From: the human T2T-CHM13v2.0 reference genome, Homo sapiens
Direction: 5' to 3' (one strand)
DNA: 64,000 nt
Assembly: GCF_009914755.1 (NCBI RefSeq)
Contig: NC_060948.1
The first letter of the stretch is position 1. Every line of letters begins with the position of its first letter. The translations under genes and the position numbers were made by a program. The notes beneath the pieces are model-generated. The model had not been told where the DNA came from, searched no databases, and saw only the letters and a list, made by a program, of their open reading frames with translations. Below, in pieces: positions 51,672 to 64,000 of the stretch.

Positions 51672-52155
51672 TGTACATGAAACTGACTAATGAATGGACT
51701 CTTTTTAAAAGAACACAATAAGCATGTATTTTCTATTTCTCCGTTACTTTTTTTAAAATTGGAAATTAATGTGGGATTTTATTCATATCCTTCTATTTTT
51801 CTTTTCCTTTAGCTAATATTAATTTTTTGTCTCCTAGATGACAGGCAGTCATATATTGTAGGTATCACAATGAACAAAAGACAGTGAGACAATTTGTAAG
51901 CTTTAATGAAGCTTATAGTCTTTATCAGTCAGGGTCTTAGCAAATAACAGATGGCATACTGAAAAGTTACTACTACTCCTAGGCCTAAAGGGTCAAGGGG
52001 AGGAAATCCTTTCTGGAACCCACAGTGAAAGTTCTATCTGTATGAAAGTTTTGACCACAGGAGCTATTAACAGATAGACAAATCAGCCCAGACAACTTGC
52101 AGCCTATAAGGGAAGGAAACAAAGGAATTAGTACTTCATTCTCTCCTTCCACCCT

Positions 52156-52405
52156 CAGATATCTTGCCAGTAGTTTCCTTTGGCCAAATCTAGTTGGAAT
52201 CCAGAGGGTAAAGAAACCCAAGCAGGCCAGCTTCATGGAAAACACTACAATATGGAACGAGATAGAGAATCAATCTATAGCAGATATCTAGCCAGTATTT
52301 TCCTTTGGCCAAATCTAGTTGGAAGCCAGAGGGTAAAGAAGCCCAAGCAAGCCAGATTTATGGAAAATAGTACAACATGGAAACAGATAGAGAATCAATC
52401 TGTAG
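52156..52405. repeat. Tandem duplication, 2 x 125 bp, within an old LTR-like element
   Basis: cagatatct...tttcctttggccaaatctagttggaa...gatagagaatcaatct starts at 52156 and again at 52281. Confidence 0.9.
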
Positions 52406-52629
52406 CAAAAACTAAAGAATAAGCAGCACACAATATATGGAAACTGGCATTTAAGTAGGTAAGTATTATACAGAGTGATAAGTTCTATGTTAGAGGAAGT
52501 TCTGCATAGCATTACAACTTTTAGAAGGGGCATCCCTGATTTGCTACTCTGCAGTACCTCTTGGACAGGTGTTGTCCACCAATTCTGCTCTAGTCAGATC
52601 AATTCATATTCAGTAATTTTAAAAAGCAT

Positions 52630-53700
52630 TTTATTATGCAAATTTTTGAATTCCATATGAAAGTAAAGAGAACAGTAATTAGTTGCGATGTATCCATCAC
52701 GTACAGTCAACAACCATCATTACTTTGGAATATTGAGGCTTCTATCGCCCAACTACTCTTTTTAATTTTGTTTGAGAGGGGTTTATAAAATATTACAGCA
52801 TTATGTTATTTTACCAGAAAATACTTAAATACACATCTCTGACAATAATATTTTAAATAGATTTTACATATCACCATGTCACTGGCATACTTAATAACAT
52901 TAACCTATTATGCTAAGAAAATTAATTAAATTCTTTAACACCATCTAATATCATCTATACTCAAAAATCCCTCAGATCATGCAATTGATTGAGAGAGAAA
53001 CCGGACTGTTTGTCCTATAGACCATCCCACATTCTGAATATCACAGATTGGTTCCTTATGACTTCATTTAATATACTCCTCTTTTTCTGGTATTTCCCTT
53101 AAAATTGTGTGTAGCCCCAGAGCCTTAATTGTATTTTGTTCCAATTTTAGGCAATAATATTTAGTGAGTGGTGGTGTATACTTTCCATTACACTGCCTTG
53201 GAGGCATATAATGTCTGATTGTCCTACTTCCAGTAATGGAAACTGTCACTGTGGGTTCAGATGATGTCAACCTGACCCTTCCATCATCAAATTTCTCACC
53301 AACACTTCAACTAAGGTTTTTAGAATTAATTGATTATTGTTGTCAAGGTACATTATGCTTTTAGGGGATGCAAAATGGAGATTTTCTTCTTCTATCATTC
53401 CTTTTGAATCTATCAATTCAACAAAGAATAACTTTCTCTCCATAATTATTAGCTTATCTTAAAATGCCCTTCATCTGGAAAGTGACGATGAATGCTTTAA
53501 AATTTCCCCTTCATCTGTTTTCAGAAAAATGGGTTGATGTCTTAGCAACTTCCAATGATATCTAATAAGTTTTTATCATTCTGAATTTATTTACTTTTAT
53601 ACTTGTGATGTGTTTTTGACGATTGAAGTTATTATTGCTCAAATTATGTCTTTTTCTGTCCAGTGGGAGTTCACTAAGTTAACATGTATGTTAATATTTT
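52630..53700 (-). mobile_element. Old L1M (L1MC/ME-like) 3' region
   Basis: Degenerate L1M 3' UTR-like motifs (tttaacaccatctaata, gaggcatataatgtctgattgtcc). Confidence 0.5.
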
Positions 53701-56700
53701 GCTTAACTTGAAATTGAGATGCCTCTTTGAATTATACTCACTCCCAACATCTCTCCCTTTTAAAATACTATATGTTGCTACAAGACTTTGTTGGAATATC
53801 ACATGAATACACTTGAATCCTCTAATCACTAGCCACATATTGGATAGTGTTCAATATTCATTCTAACTTTTCAAGATATCACCAATTAACTCCAATTCAA
53901 TTCTATGTCAGACATGTCACTTAACTGAAATTTGAGGTTCTATCACTCTTCATACCTATGAATTCTGTTTATACTCATTGTTATGGAATTTGGAGTTCTC
54001 CACGATTTGTCCTTAAACTTATTTCTCATTACTACTTTACCCTACCTCATTGCTGCCCTATTTGTCTTTTTCAGCTTCTGAAAGGCAGATCCTTATTGAA
54101 TACTTCCTGCAAGTCTAGGTTCGTGGAAGTTTCTGAGTGAATTTGGGAAAGGGTAAAGGGAGTTGAAATCAAAACAGTAAGAGATGTATTCAAATTTTTT
54201 TGCTAATTCCCCTAACTCCCTTTGCTATGGCTCTAGGCTCACCAAAAGAATACTGTCGGTTATGGGTCTTTCTAGGTAGATCTTACTTTCAAAAAGAGAC
54301 TGCTCTCACCAAAGTAATATATTGCCTATTTCTCTTTCAGTTATGTTTTTTTTTCATTATAAATAAGTTCCTGGCCTTTTCATTACAGGTAGCTTTCCAT
54401 GCTGTATCTTTTACATAAAGTCCATAGAAAAAAAGATGCCTCATCTACAGTGCCTACAGTTATTATCATAGTCCTGTTTTTCACTGCAAACTAATTATTT
54501 GTATTTCTGATCAGTCTTGTGAGCCAGCACAATGTGAATCTACCCACTCTCTGAGTGCTGATAACTTAGATAACTGAGTCAAAAAGGCTGCAGAGATCTG
54601 AGGCCTTGGCATCATGATAATGAATATACCCGTGTGAGATAGTCAACAGCCTTTCCCCTGGTGGCACAAGTCTTTGTGTTAGCCTTATCCTCATCTATCT
54701 TATTTGAACTTCTGCAGGCACAACTCACAAGGCATCACAGATTAGATTATGCTTTGATCCAATTATTTTATTTTATACATGAGAAAACTGAAGCCCTAAG
54801 AGGAAAGGACTTTTCTGAGATTACAAAGTCATGAAAAAGCCACGATTTATTCCAAGTCTCCTGATACTCAGTTGAGCATTCTTTGCCTTGCCTGATGCGT
54901 CTAGATGGATGAAAAAGCATTTTCTTATTATCATTTGGATTTCATAAATATTCATGGATTATAAAAGTCTAGTGATGCCTGAGACCTTAGAGACCGTATA
55001 ACCTATTGTATCTCAACAGGGATCAATGGACTAGATATATTAGAACGATCCCTGGAAATTTTCATTCTATAGGACTGGGATGAGGATAAAAAACTGTGCT
55101 TTTTATACAAATAAAAACTTCCCAGGTGATTCTGCACAGTAAGACTTGGAAAACCCTCCTATTTTATAATTGCTTACTTTTGCTGATGAATTAACAGGCC
55201 TAGGAAAGAGAAGAAATCTTTTCTTTACACATAATTTCTTGCTTAGGGTCTCGATCATACCACAGTTGACTTTTGAGCAGTTATTTACAACTCCAGCACT
55301 ATGTACTAAAAAAGATTGAAGCGGTTCAGTTTGGAAGATCTACATTAGGGAAACAACACCTAGAGTAAATCCTGGAGCAGATTGTGAAGTCAGTCCCAAA
55401 TGTCATTTGGGCACAAGTGTTTTTTGCTTCTATTGCTGAAATGCACATAACTTATGCCATGGGACATATTCAAAGAGGCAGAAAGCTACAATTAGAAGGT
55501 GGCAATAACACACATTGCCATCAATGAATTTAGAGAAAAAATAATTGAACTTGTCATTAAAGTCAAAGCTGGATGCATTTTGGAAGGGTAATCAATTTCT
55601 GAAGGGCCCCAGTGCAAACTATTCACATCGTTGGAGGTTGTTCTCAGCTACATGCTACAATTAGGCAAGTAGGTTGTACTTTAATACAAATGGGTAGTTC
55701 TTGTTCTGTGATATAAACCCATTTTCGAGACTTCTATGCCTATATCAATTGTATATGCCAATACCTCCTCAGATGTGTATCTGTACATTATTTTTCTTAA
55801 TGATATTGAACACTTTCATATGTGAGGCAAAACCATAAAGCATTTTATTGTCAGATAAGGGAGTAAGACAACTTGTATAGGTTTGAATTAAAAGATAAGT
55901 TTACTTAGTAGCATTGGTTCAGAGGCAAGAATTATCACATTCAATTTGTGGAAGATAATGAGAAAGATTGATGGCATACGAGGTGGGCCTTGGAGAATGG
56001 GGTGGGTGGAGACAGATGAGAGAGATGAGGGGAGAGGGAAGGAGGGAGGGAGAGAGAGAGAGGGAGAGAGAAAAGCAAGAAAGGAGAGAGAAAGAATGAA
56101 CAAAAGCATTCATTCCAGGCTTCCAGGCTCAGAGAATTGTATGAATAACGCTACAGGTGAATGAGAGTACAAAATAGATCAGGCTAACCCAGAGACTTAT
56201 CCTTAGCAGACATTATTTGAAAGGACAGTTCACCCTCTAAGTTTCCTTAAGAAGTTTTCACTGGAAAGCTCCTGTCTTCCGCTTTCATAGTTTGGTGGTA
56301 AACAGAGAGGTGTAGTTGAACATCACCTGTAGACCAAATAGGGTGTTAACAGAAAACTAGAACTCTGACAATGATGCTATAATTATGCGGAAGGAGGGTC
56401 AGTAGTGTTAAGGAAAAGGGAGTAAAGGATTTAGAAACCGAAGGGTAAATTTTCAGCCTCTTCCTTGCTACAAATTAAGCATATCACCTTGGGTTTTTAC
56501 TCAATGTCTTTTGCACCTTGCTTTCTTTCTTTATAAAAATAGGATGAAAACGCCTCTTCTTTCTAGGTCTGTGGATTGCTGTGAGGATCAAATAAGATAA
56601 ATGCAAATTTTGGTGTTATTATTAGAAGTAATAATGGTAAAATGGAGTATTTCATATCATTTAAAGATTTTTTATATATGCTAAGATATTTTTTCATACT

Positions 56701-59487
56701 TTTTCAAAATATCAATTCTGTAGTGCCATAAATAATTGTATTAAATGAATCGCTGGTACAAAGATCACATTCTGGTTCATAAGTCCTGTCTGGATGACTT
56801 AGAAATATTTAACTGTTAATATGAATATGGAAATCCAGCAGACTGAATCATTAAGGAGGAAAAAGGACCCGTTTTATGCATCAGACAGATTTCAGTAGCT
56901 TATATTGTCTACCTACAGGAGCTGGACACAATGATTCTTGCATATTTTGGATTCAAATGCATTTTTATTATTATTTTACCCCTGAAGCTAGGTTTGGAAA
57001 GACAACATTTGTTACTTAAGACAACTTAGAAAAAAAAAAAAACTATTTCTAAGTTATCACATTGAAAGGGTTGTTATGAGACCATCACATTATTTTATTT
57101 GCCAAATATGAATATGTTTCCTCAGTAATGTACTTTTGATTGTTATTGTTTTTAGAGAAATAAGATACTGTTCTCAATAAAATAAAGAACATGCTCAAAT
57201 AACGAACTAATAAAGGGATAAAAATAGTCAATTAACATTGAGACGCTTGTTCACTGTCACTAGTAATCAAATAAATACAATGCAAATAAATCATTGAGTT
57301 ATTATTTCAAACTATCGAATTTGCAAACATTTAAAAGAAAAAGAGCTGGCAAATTCATAACCTCCTTTAAAAAGGGAATACTTAAATGAATTATAGTAGA
57401 GTGATTCAAGTACATTATAAAGAATAGATGGCAGTGAGGAAATAATCATAATAAATACATAAAAATCTGATGTATAATTGGTGATCTGCAAGAAAATGTG
57501 GGGAAAAGGTAGTAGCATTTACTTCTGAATGGTTGTACAATTTTTAGAGTTTTAAAAACTCCATTTCTGAATTTTCTGCAATAATTATTACTGTTATTAT
57601 CAGTAAAAATGAGAAAACAAAAATATGTGTGTGTGCACTCATACATGAATGCACACCTACTTCTTCTAGAGTTGTTTGGTTCTTAGTTACAGTAAAACTA
57701 TAATCTACCACAAAATGACAGCAGCATGCTTTACTGAGCTGCAGTTGTGCATATGGCCTGTTTATTCTTTTTTTTTTTTTTTTGGTCAACCTGTACTTCT
57801 TGTTTGGCTTTCTGTATTATAGATATTTGATATTATAAATATAAATATTATAGATGTTTGCAAGTTACATGTTTCTAATTGCCCAGCTACAAATATCAGT
57901 GGTGGTATATGCACTATCTACTACACTCATTCGGGACATAAATTTATATAACAGAAAGGCTACTGTTTTTGTAATTTAAATACACAGGGCTATTTTATTC
58001 TATGGGAGCAAGCAGAATTTAATTTAAACTGGCGTTTTTTCTGTAGACCTGGGAGTAGAATTTTTTTTTTTTTTTGAGATGGAGTCTTGCTCTTAATTTT
58101 ACCCAGGGATGCACTATTTTATTATTTTATAGTGAATAATATCTGACAAGCATGCATTATATTGCTACCTGCTGAGTCATGAATACATGAATACTACCAA
58201 GTAAATAGCTCAAATTTATAAATTTTAAAGCAATTTTTATTTTTGAATTGATCTTGTGTTTTTGATAGAATATACCTAAAAGGCTTAAAGTGCATGTAAC
58301 TGAGCAATTTTCTTTTATGTAATGATGCAAAGTATATGAATAGTAAGTAATCTGACTCAGCAAAGAGACAAGAGTTCATACCCAAGAGATTCGTGCTTTG
58401 AGGTTTGGAAATAGCTCTTGTTATGTATTTTTGATCTTGGGTGGGCTATTAGCTATAAGTCTTGGTGTCTTCATCCATAAAATGGTATTAATAGCACCTG
58501 CCTTTTCTGCTTTTCAGGTGTAGAGACTTGAAAAGTAAATAATAATACGTGGAAGTTCTCTACCGCCTTCTGTGCCCAGCTTGACCACATATTCAGGTTT
58601 TTGATAATTAGCACAATTAAAGTGAACCAAGGGGGAACAAGTTGCTGATTTAATTTGGGGTTACATTGCCTTCACCCTGTGTCATAGGCTTACTTAGTCC
58701 AAGCATTCCTTAAGTATGCGTGTCTATTTAAGAGATTAGCTGAGGGTGGCTGATATTCAATCTCAATTTATCTCAGCTTTGGGAAAACCATCCCTGCGTG
58801 TACCCTATCTGTGCTTGTGAGTCCACAGTGGGATTTTGTATAAAGAACAGCATGTTTATATTTACAAGATTGAAACTGTAGGTGAAGTTCATAAACATCT
58901 GAAATAATTCTTTTTTCCTGAAATATTTCCTGCTCTTCTGGCATTCTTCTTTGTAATATTCAGTTTCACATATACTTTCCTAGTTACATTGCAAACTCCA
59001 TGGGGTCAAAGTGTGTGCTAGTTTTGCATACTACTGAGTCTGTTGTGTCCATTACAGTGCTTGACACATAGCAGATGCTCAATAATTAAAACAGCAATTA
59101 TACACACACACATATATAAATATATATATATTTATATAAAATATATAAAAACAATGGACTGACAGACTCATTAAGTCCCACCACCCACCTCCTATTTCCT
59201 AGCATAGTGTCAGGTACTTATTAGGTGAACAACAGATAGTGACTGTATCTTATTTATATTATTTAGGATGGGCCTCTAGGAGTTCAGTAACTTATTGTTT
59301 TAGAGTAAATCAAAATATTAATCCTTACATGACACTTAAATGCATGAATACAGTATTGTGCTTAAGTAGGATACTGTCCTCAATAATTTAAAAATACATG
59401 CACCCATTTTTTTTCCATGCATTGAAAATGACTAGTCCAGAGATGAATATGAAGGCAGTGATAAAAGTCTGGGAGCAATATCGTCTA

Positions 59488-59547
59488 ACTTAGGGCTTGA
59501 GGCTCATTTGGATTCCCACTTAGGGCTTGAGGCTCATTTGGATTCCC
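59488..59547. repeat. Perfect tandem duplication, 2 x 30 bp
   Basis: acttagggcttgaggctcatttggattccc repeated back-to-back. Confidence 0.92.
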
Positions 59548-60419
59548 TAATTATGCTGATCTAGATCTTCAGGCTTGTAGTTCTCCCTGAGGGTCTTGGT
59601 TATTTTTCCTAATAGACTCACCAGTCTCGTTAATCAAACAAGTCCTCAACACTAAATATAAATCTCATCATAAAATCAAAGTTGCATTTATCCTAGTAAA
59701 AGTCTAAAGCTACTTCTACTAATTAGTAAGTTTGGGGAATAATTTGCCTAGACACCAGCAATGTGCTGGGCCTACATTTGGGCTACAGTGTATTTACTTA
59801 CCATAATTAGTGATTTTTTAAAAAAGGTAATTTTACCACTTGGAGTAAAAGAACATCAAAAATAAATGCTATAATTCAGTGAAGTTTGTAAAAAAAAAAG
59901 GGTCTATGTCTATATATCCATCCATACATATGTATGGTATTCATGACACCTTCTAAATTAGTGCAGCAATACATTATATTTTATCTCTGATTTAACTGTT
60001 CTTATAAAACAGCAAGATTATAAAAATTCCCACTTAACCAACATTAAAAGCAGCATTAAAATCTACAGTACTTAAAGAACATATTATCAATAACTTCCAT
60101 GATATGTGCTTACAAATTTTTTCCAAATATTAGATGATTGATACTTCATTTTCTAATAGCTTTCAGACCTGACAATCTGGATGGTAAACTGTAATTCAAT
60201 ATCTCCAAACTTACATTTGGCCAGATTATCATCTTGTGTATGTGTGTGTATGAAGGGGTGTGTGTATGAAGGGGTGTGTGTGTGTGTGTTTGTAGCAGAG
60301 AGAAAGATAGAGAAATAAAAAATAAATAAATAAAACAAACCTGGTAAAAGAAAAATTATGCTTTGGAAGATACGGCTTATTTCCCTCTTGGTATAGTCTC
60401 TTCATAATATTATTTTTTT

Positions 60420-61225
60420 TAATTTTTTTTTGTGGGGACATAGTAAGTGTGTATATTTATGGGGTACATGCGATGTTTTGATGCAGGCATACAATCTGGA
60501 ATAAGCCAATCATGAAGAATGGGGTATCCATTCCTTCAACACCCATCACTTGAACTACAAACAATACAATTACACTCTGTAATTATTTTAAAATGTATAA
60601 TTAAGTTATTATTGATTACAGTCATCTTGGTGTGCTATCAAATTGTAGGTCACAATCATTGTTTCTATGTTTTTTTAAAACCATTAACTATCCCCATCTC
60701 CCTACCAGGCCCCCATTACCCTTCCCAGCTTCTGGTAACCATCCTTCTACTTTTTATGTCCATGAGTTCAATTATTTTTATTTCTTGTCCCACAAATAAG
60801 TGAGAACGTGCAATGTTTGTCTTTCTGTGCCTGGCTTATTTCACTTAACATAATGATCTCCGTTCCACCATGCTGTTGGAAATCACTGGATCTCATTCTT
60901 TTTGTACGGCTGAATAATACTCCATTGTGTATGTGTACCACATTTTCTTTTGTTTTTATTTTATTATACTTTAAGTTTTAGGGTACATGTGCACATTGTG
61001 CACATTAGTTACATATGTATACATGTGCCATGCTGGTGCGCTGCACCCACTAACTCGTCATCTAGCATTAGGTATATCTCCCAATGCTATCCCTCCCCCA
61101 TTTTCTTTATCGCTTTATCTGCTGATGGACATTTAGGTTGCTTCCAAATCTTTTATTTTTTCCAAAAATCTGAAATTTGAGCTACCATATGATCCAGCAA
61201 TCTCACTGCTGGCTATATACCAATA
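60420..61225 (-). mobile_element. L1MA-type 3' end with a short inverted 5' piece, interrupted by a younger L1 fragment
   Basis: L1MA 3' UTR motifs (gtatatttatggggtacatg, tctgtgcctggcttatttcactta); plus-orientation piece gagctaccatatgatccagcaatc at ~61180. Confidence 0.8.
60951..61098 (-). mobile_element. ~150-bp young L1 (L1PA2-like) 3' end with TSD
   Basis: Near-consensus young L1 3' terminus (actaactcgtcatctagcattagg) flanked by cattttcttt on both sides. Confidence 0.85.
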
Positions 61226-61636
61226 TCAGAGTAAGCCACAAAAGTCATGTCCTCTACATCATTAATATAATTTAGAGGTGGACAATAAAAAAGAAAATTA
61301 ATGGAGAAATAAAAGCAGAAATTTATAAAACATGTATAAACAAATGAGTCCATATTACTCAACTTTATATGGGTAAAAATGGAAGTAAAGTCACAATATC
61401 AGGCATTGAAATTATTCTGTATTCTGTTACTTGGTGTAAGGTGATTTGCCACAATCCAAGAGTCTATGAAGTAAGTTTGTATGAGATAGGATGGAAGGAA
61501 AGGAGAATTTGAACTATCTCAGGGATATTTTTTAATGATTGAAAGCTATGCTATAAAATCTCTTAGGAAAAACATGCTATCAATTGCCTGATGGAGTAAT
61601 GCATATCTCATATCCTTCTCATCTCTATTCCTTCAG

Positions 61637-61773
61637 ATCACAGTAGCTTTGGCAGCAATATCGAGATGTTGTCAGTTAAGCTTCTAGATCCCTCCATCTG
61701 CCACCATCAACATAGTCACATGACTAGAAATAATAATTTATGTATCTAGAATCAGCCACAAGTAGACTGCTGA
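61637..61773 (+). pseudogene. Putative pseudo-exon of a trypsin-like (S1) protease domain
   Basis: Pyrimidine-rich acceptor tctctattccttcag; 137 bp, phase 1 to 0; HSSFGSNIEMLSVKLLDPSICHHQHSHMTRNNNLCI*NQPQVDC*|gtactt with C-x13-C-x8-C spacing. Confidence 0.55.
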
Positions 61774-61949
61774 GTACTTACTACATAAAGGCAAAGCTAG
61801 CATTTTTGGGTTGGGGGGGCAGGTGTAGAAACACGTTAACAGTTCTGTAAATACACATAAAGATATGCATTTTCCTTAATCACAAATAAATAAACCAGAA
61901 GAATTTTCAGTGATTTAAAAAAATTAAGAAATAGGGAACTTATTTAAAA

Positions 61950-62225
61950 AGCCTTTGAAGCCACAGTGGCTCTTGCCTGTTATCTCAGTATTTTGGGAAA
62001 CTGAGACAGGGCCTCACTTGAGGCCAGGAATTCCAGAGGAGGCTGGCAAATAGAGTGAGATGCTGTCTCTAGAAAAAATAAATAAAATTTAAAAATTAGC
62101 TGCTTGTTTTGCAGTGTGCCTACAGCCCTAGCTACTTGGGAGGCTGAGGTGAAAGAATTGTTTGAACCAGGGAGTTTGATGTTGCTGTAACTTATGATCT
62201 TGTCACTTCACCCCAGCCTGTCCAG
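61950..62225 (+). mobile_element. Alu (AluJ-like), 3' end and tail missing
   Basis: Diverged dimer ending at ccccagcctg with no poly-A. Confidence 0.85.
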
Positions 62226-62239
62226 AGGATTATCTAATC

Positions 62240-64000
62240 ATACTGTGGACTATTGCCAAATCTGCAGCAGTGAAACTCTGGACACATTCTGTGTCTGGTA
62301 AAGTCACACTTTGGAACCAAGAAGAATTTCCAGCCTTACTTCCCTTGACAGAGCCTATCGCTAAGACAGTCACAACATAGATCCAGGATAGAATTCCAAC
62401 AATAAATCCCTGAGCAAAAACTATAGCTGAAACTGCCATACCATGGATCCTCGATGAAATGCCACCAACAAATCCCTGGAAAAAATACAGCCTGAATATT
62501 TAGCAGTAAATACCTGGCACTATCTGAATTTAACCCAGTCTCATTGTGGATCTTGGCTTATTTGTCAGTAGGAAACTACTCTACACAGTTCCATACTGAA
62601 ACAATAACACTGTGAACCCACGTTGAGTCTCCAGCAATACTTTCCTGGAAACAGTTGGGAACTGATATAATCACATTAGGGACCCATGCTGAATCACTAG
62701 TGATGAATTCATGGATATATTCTTCTATATGTGATACGGTCACAACACCTATCCAGGCTGAATCAGTTATTAAATCACTGGACATACTCTGAAACTGATA
62801 TACTCACAACATGGATTCTGGCTGAAACTCTAGGATTAAGTCCCTGGGCACGTGATATGTTCCTACCATGGACCCAGGCTGAAAGTCCAGCAGTATCTTG
62901 GATTCAACCATGGATTCTGGGTAGAATGCCAGCAATGAATCCCTGGAGAGAGGCTACAGCTGACATTGTCCTACCCTGGAACCAGGCTGAATTTATGTAG
63001 AAGGAAATGCCTGGACACCGTCTGAAACTTATACAATCACAAAGAGGATCCTGAGTGATTCTCCAGCACTAAATTCATGGACATGGGCAATAGCTGATGC
63101 AGACCAGCTGTGGACCAAACCTGAATTTCCAGCAGTAAATCCCTGGACAAAGTCTGTAGTTGATAGTACTATACCATGGATACAGGATGAGTCTCCAGCA
63201 ATAAATCCATGGACACAGTACGTATCTTATATGATCAAACCATGAGCCCAAAATGACTCTTCAGCAGTAAATCTCTGTACACTACCTGAATCTGATACCA
63301 TTATCCTGTGGACACAAGCTGAGTCTCCAACAGTAAATCCGTTCACAGAGGCTGGAACTTCCACAGTCACACCATGGGCCCAGGCTGTATCTCCAGCAGT
63401 AATTCCACGGACACAGCCTATACTTTCCACAGTCGTACCTTGGACCCAGGTTGAATGTCCATCAGTAAATACCTGGAGAACGTCCATAGCTGATGCCATC
63501 ACACTGTGGATAGGGGCTGAATTAACCGCAGGATATCAATGGATACTGCCTTGGGCTGCTACTGTCACACTGTGGTCACAGTCTGAATCTCCAGCAGGAA
63601 ATCTTTGGACACAGTCTGTGTATGACACAGACACACCATGGCCTCAGGCTGAATCTCCAGCAGTAGTTTGCTGGACAGAACATGTAGCTGATACACACCG
63701 TGGACTCAGTTTGAATTTTTAACAGTAAAGCCTTGGATCCAATCTGTATCTGATACGCTCATACCATGGACCCAGGCTGAGTCTTCAGCACTAAAGCATT
63801 TGACACAGGCAATAGCTTATACAATCAAGCTGTGGAACCAAGTCAAATCACCTGCCATAAATCTCTGGAAACAATATGAAACGAATATGTTCACATGGTG
63901 TACTGAGGTTGAATCTCCAAAAGTAAAGGAGGGGACACATCCTATACCTGCTACAGTTATACCACTGAACCAAGCTGAATCTGTAGGAGTAAATCCCTCC
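62240..64000 (+). pseudogene. Decayed coding tandem array of 66-bp (22-aa) Trp-rich repeats; probable giant-exon remnant (PRSSLY-like, tentative); continues off the right edge
   Basis: The SPA-codon motif recurs at 63192, 63258, 63324, 63390, 63456, 63522, 63588 and 63654. One plus frame reads LWTQAESPTVNPFTEAGTSTVTPWAQAVSPAVIPRTQPILSTVVPWTQVECPSVNTW...; stops fall at Trp positions. Confidence 0.75.

What the first reader, a model, noticed from the sequence alone, without database searches (positions are those of the whole stretch)
61637..61773. Unannotated 137-bp exon with trypsin-fold cysteine spacing just upstream of the repeat array
Seen: strong acceptor (ctcatctctattccttcag), GT donor after 137 bp, phase 1 to 0, translating ...NIEMLSVKLLDPSICHHQHSHMTRNNNLCI*NQPQVDC*. 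Established: the S1-protease exon carrying C168, C182 and C191 is phase 1-0 and 137 bp in trypsinogen and kallikrein genes, and chymotrypsin spacing is C-x13-C-x8-C, as here. Inference: a degenerate protease domain lay 5' of the Trp-repeat exon on the same strand. As I recall, PRSSLY has its protease domain after the giant exon, so this would suggest an extra N-terminal protease-like domain or a different protease-repeat gene.
Basis: partly seen in the sequence, partly recalled or inferred. Interest (0 to 1): 0.8.

Follow-up and report, generated by a model that had tools for sequence, protein, structure and literature searches.

The report
Relic exon of PRSSLY pseudogene
This 137-base piece is a dead leftover exon from the front, protease-like domain of PRSSLY, a Y-chromosome gene that humans have lost; it sits in a truncated gene copy that is repeated four times on the Y.

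Summary
Window 61637-61773 is 137 bp, AG-bounded at the 5' end and GT-bounded at the 3' end.

It is not chance. It is exon 4 of the N-terminal trypsin-like domain of PRSSLY. tblastn with intact orthologue P0013 hits exactly 61639-61776 (56.5% identity over 46 aa, E 6e-11). Woodrat P0016 matches equally well. Both human stops fall on Trp codons in these orthologues.

The orthologue's N-terminal domain matches Pfam Trypsin end to end (E 1.2e-8). It has Ser at the His57 position and Gln at the Ser195 position, so it is a pseudoprotease. Its last strands are encoded at the start of the giant exon.

The window copy is a wreck:
- The 5' end is cut inside exon 3, against a dispersed repeat.
- 9,472 bp are missing just 3' of the exon, including the first 2.5 kb of the giant exon.

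Four near-identical copies lie on chrY. A fuller copy, 84% identical, lies at chrY:10.25 Mb; that is the locus Hughes et al. 2022 modelled.

Interest is modest.

The parts
60700..61215 (.). Dispersed repeat (LINE-1-like by eye) that abuts the 5' end of the PRSSLY-derived sequence. Homology to the fuller copy stops here.
   Evidence: Own-genome search gave 6988 first-look candidates on many chromosomes at 80-90% identity. NCBI masks 60711-60863 and 60883-61214 (hub table). blastn homology to the fuller copy begins at 61204. The LINE-1 naming is recalled, not tested.
61204..61230 (+). Last bases of PRSSLY exon 3 (clearly aligned from about 61213), ending in phase 1. The donor GTAAGC at 61231-61236 is intact.
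   Evidence: mafft alignment with the fuller copy. The exon 3 end in the fuller copy was defined by tblastn with P0013 and printed with flanks. The exon 3 query matches the four amplicon copies only from its base 315 onward.
61231..61636 (+). Intron 3 (406 bp), colinear with the fuller copy.
   Evidence: 83.6% identity over 61204-62220.
61637..61773 (+). The finding: exon 4 of the N-terminal trypsin-like (pseudoprotease) domain of PRSSLY. It is 137 bp, phase 1 to 0, and carries the C168/C182/C191 equivalents. It is disabled by TAG at 61747-61749 and TGA at 61771-61773, both Trp codons in orthologues and in the fuller human copy.
61774..62220 (+). First 447 bp of intron 4, including an Alu-like element (about 61950-62220, named by eye) that the fuller copy also has.
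   Evidence: Alignment; blastn.
62221..62237 (+). Junction of a 9,472-bp gap relative to the fuller copy. The gap removes 6.9 kb of intron 4 and the first 2,546 bp of the giant exon, including the codons for the end of the N-terminal domain.
   Evidence: In the fuller copy the giant exon begins cctttcag|GTACAGCAAGG, which reads VQQGIPVLCLFGSHWELVGLVS.
62238..64000 (+). Remainder of the giant Trp-rich exon, riddled with stops. It continues past the window to about 68920 in continued window numbering.
   Evidence: translations; tblastn with P0012; 84% identity to the fuller copy.

Best explanation
Window 61637-61773 is exon 4 of the N-terminal trypsin-like domain of a PRSSLY pseudogene.

In intact PRSSLY the protein starts with a trypsin-fold domain that lacks two of the three catalytic residues (Ser at the His57 position, Gln at the Ser195 position). 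Small exons encode most of this domain. Its last strands are encoded by the first codons of the giant Trp-rich exon. Two further trypsin-like domains follow the giant exon.

The copy in this window is dead and partial:
- It begins inside exon 3, next to a dispersed repeat.
- Exon 4 keeps its splice sites but has two Trp-to-stop changes.
- It then lacks 9.5 kb, including the start of the giant exon.
- The rest of the gene, also full of stops, runs to about 11.7 kb beyond the window.

The copy lies in a Y amplicon present four times. An older, fuller and equally dead copy lies at chrY:10.25 Mb. The exon therefore has no protein function here. Its protease-like Cys spacing is inherited, not coincidental.

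Shown: orthology, domain identity, truncation, deletion and copy number. Inferred: that the pieces are not expressed as protein, and the direction of the stop changes (TGG to TAG and TGG to TGA).
For: 1.

2. Orthology of the exon:
- tblastn of P0013 residues 225-800 against window+20 kb hits 61639-61776 at 56.5% identity over 46 aa, E 6e-11. Both human stops sit opposite W.
- blastp of the peptide gives P0013 E 3e-16 and P0016 (woodrat) E 4.5e-16 over 44 aa. The next best hit (E 0.016) is the equivalent exon of the third protease domain.
- 2 of the 5 long orthologues examined carry the exon. P0015 has exons 2-3 and the giant-exon start but skips exon 4. P0012 and P0014 start at or after the giant-exon start.

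3. Domain identity:
- The P0013 N-terminal region matches Pfam Trypsin at E 1.2e-8, 35.4 bits (cut-off 20.6), over profile positions 10-220 of 220.
- The best PDB hit is factor Xa 1kig_H at E 4.4e-7. It aligns the three Cys to C168, C182 and C191, 'lstasc' to LTAAHC, and 'wvqqgsp' to QGDSGGP.
- Whole P0013 has 3 Trypsin stretches.

4. Same gene as the repeats. On the + strand downstream, Pfam Trypsin hits lie at about 69651 and 72772. tblastn with slow-loris P0012 finds the exons of domains 2 and 3 from 69597 to 75695.

5. Fuller human copy at chrY:10.235-10.265 Mb, minus strand:
- Exons 2, 3 and 4 and the giant-exon start are all found there.
- Its exon 4 has no stops and has TGG at both positions.
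- Homology map and the 9,472-bp gap.
- The bodies of exons 2 and 3 exist nowhere else in the genome.

6. Copy number. The four amplicon copies differ by 0, 0 and 1 mismatch over 3401 bp.

7. Literature. Hughes et al. 2022 (PMC9178871; sections 5 and 12 and found passages read) state that the human Y has PRSSLY pseudogene loci, weakly transcribed, with truncated ORFs.
Against: - The 45-aa human peptide alone gets no Pfam family at E up to 10. The + strand frames of 52000-62200 get none either.
- The orthologues that carry the exon are computational gene models: one unnamed metaclust record with retroviral junk at its N-terminus, and one partial woodrat model. Only 2 of 5 long models include the exon. 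A neighbouring gene fused by prediction is therefore not formally excluded from protein data alone.
- I could not align the RNA-seq-based cDNAs of the paper. Supplement 9 shows only the first 400 nt of each, and I did not enter those sequences into tools. That deer, ferret, fox and giraffe cDNAs begin with this N-terminal region is a by-eye reading.
- There is no transcript evidence for this copy.
- Window and fuller-copy exon 4 differ at 17 of 137 bases, 10 of them at second codon positions. This shows no constraint since the copies split. It fits a pseudogene, but gives no independent support for past coding.
Confidence: 0.93

Rival explanations
1. Chance resemblance: an AG...GT interval of 137 bp whose translation happens to have three cysteines at protease-like spacing.
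For: No Pfam hit for the peptide alone. There are two stops in 45 codons. Elsewhere in the same region I met chance look-alikes that did not hold up: FSEWWCILS at 53160, and an intronic TWCKVICHNPRVYE|GTAAGT at 61428-61475.
Against: tblastn gives E 6e-11 at exactly these coordinates. blastp gives E about 1e-16 to two orthologues, colinear over the whole exon, with W at both stop positions. The paralogous human copy has the same exon without stops.
Confidence: 0.01
2. The exon belongs to a different protease-repeat gene, or to a separate upstream protease gene, and not to PRSSLY.
For: The published text says PRSSLY has only one identifiable domain, lying after the giant 'upstream ORF'. Three of five long orthologue models lack the exon.
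Against: - The Pfam Trypsin match of the N-terminal domain runs on into residues (VQQGSP...IKTAPY..W) that form the first codons of the giant exon. This is seen in P0012, P0013, P0015, P0016 and the fuller human copy. The small exons and the giant exon therefore encode one fold.
- P0013 and P0016 run from this domain through the repeats. P0013 continues to the two C-terminal domains.
- By eye, long RNA-seq-assembled cDNAs of deer, ferret and fox start with this domain.
Confidence: 0.03
3. Not only a relic: the exon is still spliced into a testis non-coding transcript from the amplicon copies, using its intact AG and GT and the intact exon 3 donor.
For: The window copy keeps the exon 3 donor GTAAGC and the exon 4 AG/GT, whereas the fuller copy has lost both donors. 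Hughes et al. report low-level transcription of primate PRSSLY pseudogenes.
Against: - No upstream exon or promoter of the gene is present in this copy.
- The natural acceptor of the giant exon is deleted.
- RefSeq lists no transcript here (hub table).
- The published human model is the other locus.
Confidence: 0.1

Closest known systems
PRSSLY (protease, serine-like, Y-linked) and its primate pseudogenes, Hughes et al. 2022, BMC Biol 20:133 (PMC9178871)
   Same: - Same gene lineage: Y-linked, with a giant Trp-rich exon followed by trypsin-like domains.
- The human locus is a pseudogene with truncated reading frames.
   Different: - A 24-mer read from the start of the paper's human model occurs once in the genome, at chrY:10243866-10243889. 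It is absent from the window+20 kb. The published model is therefore the pericentromeric copy. It starts inside the giant exon and does not begin with the N-terminal exons.
- The main text names only one identifiable domain. It has 0 occurrences of 'N-terminal', 'catalytic' and 'triad'.
- Figures 2 and S1 could not be seen, so they may show more.
Exon 4 of trypsinogen and kallikrein genes (S1 family gene structure)
   Same: 137 bp, phase 1 in and phase 0 out. It encodes the C168...C182...C191 segment and ends one residue after C191, just before the GDSGGP-equivalent. The equivalent exon of PRSSLY domain 2 in this locus is 134 bp with the same phases.
   Different: The residues that follow in orthologues are VQQGSP, not GDSGGP.
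TMPRSS9 / polyserase-type proteins with several tandem S1 domains, some inactive (recalled)
   Same: There are several trypsin-like domains in one chain: 3 Pfam Trypsin stretches in P0013. NCBI names relatives 'transmembrane protease serine 9-like' and 'Tmprss9l1'.
   Different: In PRSSLY the first domain is separated from the other two by thousands of residues of Trp-rich repeats. No orthology to TMPRSS9 was tested. The paper names PRSS55 as the closest paralogue (abstract).

Membership tests
PRSSLY locus (orthologous pseudogene) | Exon sequence orthologous to the corresponding exon of intact PRSSLY | tested here: met
   tblastn E 6e-11. blastp E 3e-16 and 4.5e-16 to P0013 and P0016.
PRSSLY locus (orthologous pseudogene) | Same strand and order as the giant Trp-rich exon and the C-terminal trypsin-like domains | tested here: met
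   Repeats run from 62238 onward. Domain 2 and 3 exons lie at 69597-75695, + strand.
PRSSLY locus (orthologous pseudogene) | Y linkage | tested here: met
   All five matches of the exon region are on contig C24, which is chrY (hub table).
PRSSLY locus (orthologous pseudogene) | Open reading frame and complete exon set (needed for a functional gene) | tested here: not met
   Two stops in exon 4. Exons 1, 2 and most of exon 3 are absent. There is a 9,472-bp gap. Stops occur throughout the downstream exons. It is therefore a pseudogene fragment.
Peptidase S1 / Pfam Trypsin PF00089 | Profile match of the human 45-aa peptide itself | tested here: not met
   0 families at E up to 10. A piece this short and degenerate is below HMMER's reach.
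Peptidase S1 / Pfam Trypsin PF00089 | Profile match of the orthologous domain that contains the exon | tested here: met
   P0013 residues 230-500: E 1.2e-8, 35.4 bits against a cut-off of 20.6, profile positions 10-220 of 220. 118 PDB sequences match at E up to 0.01; those listed are S1 proteases.
Peptidase S1 / Pfam Trypsin PF00089 | Cys168-Cys182 pair and Cys191 in register | tested here: met
   C-x13-C-x8-C in human, P0013 and P0016. These align to the factor Xa cysteines.
Peptidase S1 / Pfam Trypsin PF00089 | Catalytic triad His57, Asp102, Ser195 | tested here: not met
   In P0013 the factor Xa alignment puts Ser at the His57 position and Gln at the Ser195 position, while Asp102 is kept. 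The domain has the fold but is a pseudoprotease. In the window copy the exons for these positions are missing.
S1 gene structure (137-bp phase 1-0 exon as in trypsinogen/kallikrein) | Exon length and intron phases | tested here: inconclusive
   The length of 137 bp and phases 1-0 are verified for this exon. The reference values for trypsinogen and kallikrein genes are recalled and were not checked with a tool.

The most novel reading that the evidence does not exclude
PRSSLY is ancestrally a three-domain protein. Its first trypsin-fold domain is a pseudoprotease with Ser at the His57 position and Gln at the Ser195 position. That domain is split between four small exons and the first codons of the giant exon. 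It appears not to be described in the PRSSLY literature, whose text names a single domain after the 'upstream ORF'.

The human Y keeps remnants of this domain at only five places: one fuller copy and four amplicon copies. The 3' protease part is scattered over at least 14 places on the Y.
Probability: 0.45. Interest if true: 0.4.

Novelty: new member of a known kind. Interest (0 to 1): 0.3.

Why it matters
The finding has three uses:
- It places an unannotated stretch of a human Y amplicon as a PRSSLY pseudogene fragment.
- It shows that the published human model is a different, older copy.
- It points out that PRSSLY's giant exon is not a free-standing 'upstream ORF'. The exon begins with the end of an N-terminal trypsin-like domain.

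This matters for annotating T2T Y chromosomes. It also matters for reading Ka/Ks and knockout designs in species where PRSSLY is intact, because the mouse mutations targeted only the 3' domain. It does not reveal a working human gene.

Tried and rejected
- Pfam on the 45-aa peptade with stops as X: no family.
- Pfam on the three + frames of 52000-62200: no family. No other N-terminal exon is detectable there.
- One over-long Pfam request failed for output size. I re-sent it in smaller lots.
- Tandem Repeats Finder on 60000-64000 found only trivial short repeats and no Trp-repeat array.
- FSEWWCILS at 53160-53186 looked like the WWILSTASC motif of exon 2. tblastn at word size 2 gave no hit there, and exon 2 DNA matches only chrY:10.25 Mb. 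I rejected it as chance.
- An intronic stretch reading TWCKVICHNPRVYE followed by GTAAGT (61428-61475) looked like the end of exon 3. It lies in intron 3 of both copies and has no counterpart in the orthologue proteins. Rejected.
- The supplementary tables of Hughes et al. give no human coordinates. The figures are not held.
- Literature searches: 'Tmprss9l1' gave 0 papers. 'PRSSLY' with 'protease domains' gave only Hughes et al.. The hamster PRSSLY paper has no mention of domains or exons.
- No structure or complex prediction was run, because the profile and PDB sequence matches sufficed.

Full report
**The observation**

The window is T2T-CHM13v2.0 chrY:25234001-25298000 (hub table; confirmed). 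At 61618-61636 there is a pyrimidine-rich tract ending in AG. The interval 61637-61773 is 137 bp and is followed by GT. Read from 61639, it gives HSSFGSNIEMLSVKLLDPSICHHQHSHMTRNNNLCI*NQPQVDC*.
- three cysteines spaced C-x13-C-x8-C;
- one internal TAG;
- a TGA as the last codon.

Trp-rich coding-like repeats begin on the same strand at about 62238 (translations printed). Tandem Repeats Finder does not call an array there.

**First tests**

The peptade alone, with stops as X, matches no Pfam family. The three + frames of 52000-62200 match none either.

Downstream of the window I fetched 20 kb. Pfam Trypsin hits two His57-type exons on the + strand:
- one at about 69651 in continued window numbering, reading ...FCAGSILHEQWIISTARC (E 2.9e-5);
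- one at about 72772, reading ...ICSGSIVGSSWILTAAHC (E 8e-7).

The repeats are therefore followed by protease-like exons, as described for PRSSLY.

**Literature**

Hughes et al. 2022 (PMC9178871) is the key paper. I read the abstract, sections 5, 12 and 16, passages found by search, and parts of supplements 1, 2 and 9. It states the following:
- PRSSLY has 'only one identifiable domain'.
- The conserved protease domain follows a giant 'upstream ORF'.

The main text has no occurrence of 'N-terminal', 'catalytic' or 'triad'. Figures 2 and S1 are not held, so I cannot say what they draw.

**Orthologues**

I searched the protein database with the human domain-3 exon and then with a sheep orthologue. 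This returned named mammalian PRSSLY-type proteins:
- bat P0001, sheep P0002, pocket gopher P0003 and armadillo P0004;
- slow loris P0012 (3873 aa);
- rat 'Tmprss9l1' P0014;
- Apodemus P0015;
- woodrat P0016;
- one unnamed record, P0013 (3971 aa).

P0013 and P0016 contain an N-terminal region before the repeats. In P0013 it runs ...PWLVSMAETCQGIILSRWWILSTASC...GDIGVVLLQYPI...HYYFGTSIKKMSVKMLDLSFCNHQNIHMTKTNNLCIWSKPQEDCW|VQQGSPVLCLFGSHWELVGLVSE...IKTAPYLPW....

**The decisive match**

tblastn of P0013 residues 225-800 against window+20 kb hits 61639-61776 at 56.5% identity over 46 aa, E 6e-11. Both human stops lie opposite Trp.

blastp of the human peptide gives E 3e-16 to P0013 and 4.5e-16 to P0016 over 44 aa; the subject set was five proteins. 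The next best match (E 0.016) is the equivalent exon of the third protease domain.

Of the five long orthologues examined:
- two carry the exon;
- P0015 has exons 2-3 and the giant-exon start but skips it;
- P0012 and P0014 begin at or after the giant-exon start.

**What the domain is**

P0013 residues 230-500 match Pfam Trypsin at E 1.2e-8, 35.4 bits (cut-off 20.6), covering profile positions 10-220 of 220. The best solved structure by sequence is factor Xa (1kig_H, E 4.4e-7). Its alignment places:
- the exon's three Cys on C168, C182 and C191;
- 'lstasc' on LTAAHC, giving Ser at the His57 position;
- 'digvv' on DIAVL, so Asp102 is kept;
- 'wvqqgsp' on QGDSGGP, giving Gln at the Ser195 position.

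It is a trypsin-fold pseudoprotease. Whole P0013 has three Trypsin stretches.

The Pfam match runs on into VQQGSP...IKTAPY..W. Those residues are the first codons of the giant exon, as three sources agree:
- the fuller human copy reads cctttcag|GTACAGCAAGG;
- the loris model starts MKVQQGSPVF;
- by eye, the mouse lemur cDNA start reads the same way.

So the small exons and the giant exon encode one fold. That argues against a separate upstream gene.

By eye, the deer, ferret, fox and giraffe cDNAs in supplement 9 begin with a signal-peptide-like stretch and this same region. Only the first 400 nt of each are shown, and I did not enter them into tools.

**State of the copy in the window**

The exon region has five matches in the genome, all on chrY:
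- four at 100% identity: 22.79 Mb (−), 23.46 Mb (+), 25.295 Mb (+, the window) and 26.91 Mb (+);
- one at 84% identity: chrY:10253753-10254143 (−).

The four differ by 0, 0 and 1 mismatch over 3401 bp.

The 84% copy is a fuller pseudogene. tblastn finds exon 2, exon 3 (with a stop), exon 4 and the giant-exon start there.

Nucleotide alignment gives this map:
- Window 61204-62220 matches the fuller copy at 83.6%.
- Window 62238-63240 then matches at 84%, but 9,472 bp further on.
- The window copy therefore lacks 6.9 kb of intron 4 and the first 2,546 bp of the giant exon.

Upstream, homology ends at about 61204-61220, inside the last bases of exon 3. It stops at the edge of a dispersed repeat that has 6988 first-look candidates genome-wide. 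The bodies of exons 2 and 3 occur nowhere else in the genome.

From the N-terminal domain, this copy therefore keeps only exon 4 and a stub of exon 3.

**Disabling changes**

Window and fuller-copy exon 4 differ at 17 of 137 bases. Ten differences are at second codon positions, four at third and two at first, so there is no sign of constraint.

The fuller copy reads HNNFGSSIKKLSVKLLDPFFCHHQHTHKTRNNNLCIWSQPQEDCW with no stop. It has lost the GT donors of exon 3 (CT) and exon 4 (GA).

The window copy keeps both donors and the acceptor. It has TAG and TGA where the fuller copy and both orthologues have Trp codons.

**Relation to the published human model**

A 24-mer read from the start of the paper's 'Human (model)' cDNA occurs once in the genome, at chrY:10243866-10243889 (−). 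It is absent from window+20 kb.

The published model is therefore the pericentromeric copy. From its visible start, it begins about 2.3 kb inside the giant exon and so does not begin with the N-terminal exons. The four amplicon copies, and this exon, are not in RefSeq's table for the window (hub).

**Verdict**

The inferred 'N-terminal protease-like domain' is real, and it is an ancestral part of PRSSLY rather than a new gene. In the human window it is a functionless relic.

The modest new points are these:
- The amplicon copies are identified as PRSSLY pseudogene fragments.
- PRSSLY's first domain is a pseudoprotease that the giant exon completes. The literature I could read does not state this.

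Noticed in passing
chrY of the window's genome (outside the window): for example 5.92, 5.97, 6.18, 7.35, 7.94, 8.55, 9.95, 10.16, 10.23 and 22.34 Mb, plus the four amplicon copies: A 901-bp query covering the domain-3 His57 exon region gives 18 matches at 84-100% identity at about 14 places, all on chrY. The exon 4 region has only five. The 3' part of the PRSSLY pseudogene is a dispersed Y-specific family.
   Followed up: partly
P0012 (slow loris model), residues 3632-3709: The loris PRSSLY-type model ends in a NAP (TSPY-like) domain (Pfam E 2e-12). Either PRSSLY lies next to a TSPY-type gene there, or the model fuses two genes.
   Followed up: no
P0015 (Apodemus model), around residue 190: This model goes straight from ...CRVYQYQ to IQQGSPVLC, which skips exon 4 of the N-terminal domain. 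The exon is either lost or skipped in that lineage, or the prediction missed it.
   Followed up: no
L006/L007, continued window numbering 69597-75695, + strand: Exons of the two C-terminal trypsin-like domains are present but broken. By eye, orthologue domain 2 has Arg at the His57 position (TTARC) and GDLGAP at the Ser195 motif. The human domain 2 exon equivalent to the finding is 134 bp (70753-70886), phase 1-0, and has Tyr where the orthologue has the Cys191 equivalent.
   Followed up: partly
window 61950-62220 and the fuller copy: An Alu-like element (named by eye) in intron 4 is shared by both human lineages, so it predates their split. The left edge of the 9,472-bp gap lies at its 3' end, where the fuller copy goes on into a poly-A run.
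   Followed up: partly
Supplement 9 of PMC9178871, compared with window 62238-62420: By eye only, the chimpanzee and rhesus 'models' share several bases with the window copy where the human model (pericentromeric copy) differs. Yet they also extend upstream of the window's deletion junction and differ from the window copy at roughly one base in ten. Which human lineage they are orthologous to is open.
   Followed up: no
chrY:10255260-10256949 (fuller copy): Exon 2 of the N-terminal domain is present there in three partial local copies, one of them inverted.
   Followed up: no
P0013, residues 62-234: The unnamed model starts with Gag p24 and RNase H matches. A retroelement appears to be fused onto the 5' end by the prediction. 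These residues are not part of PRSSLY.
   Followed up: no
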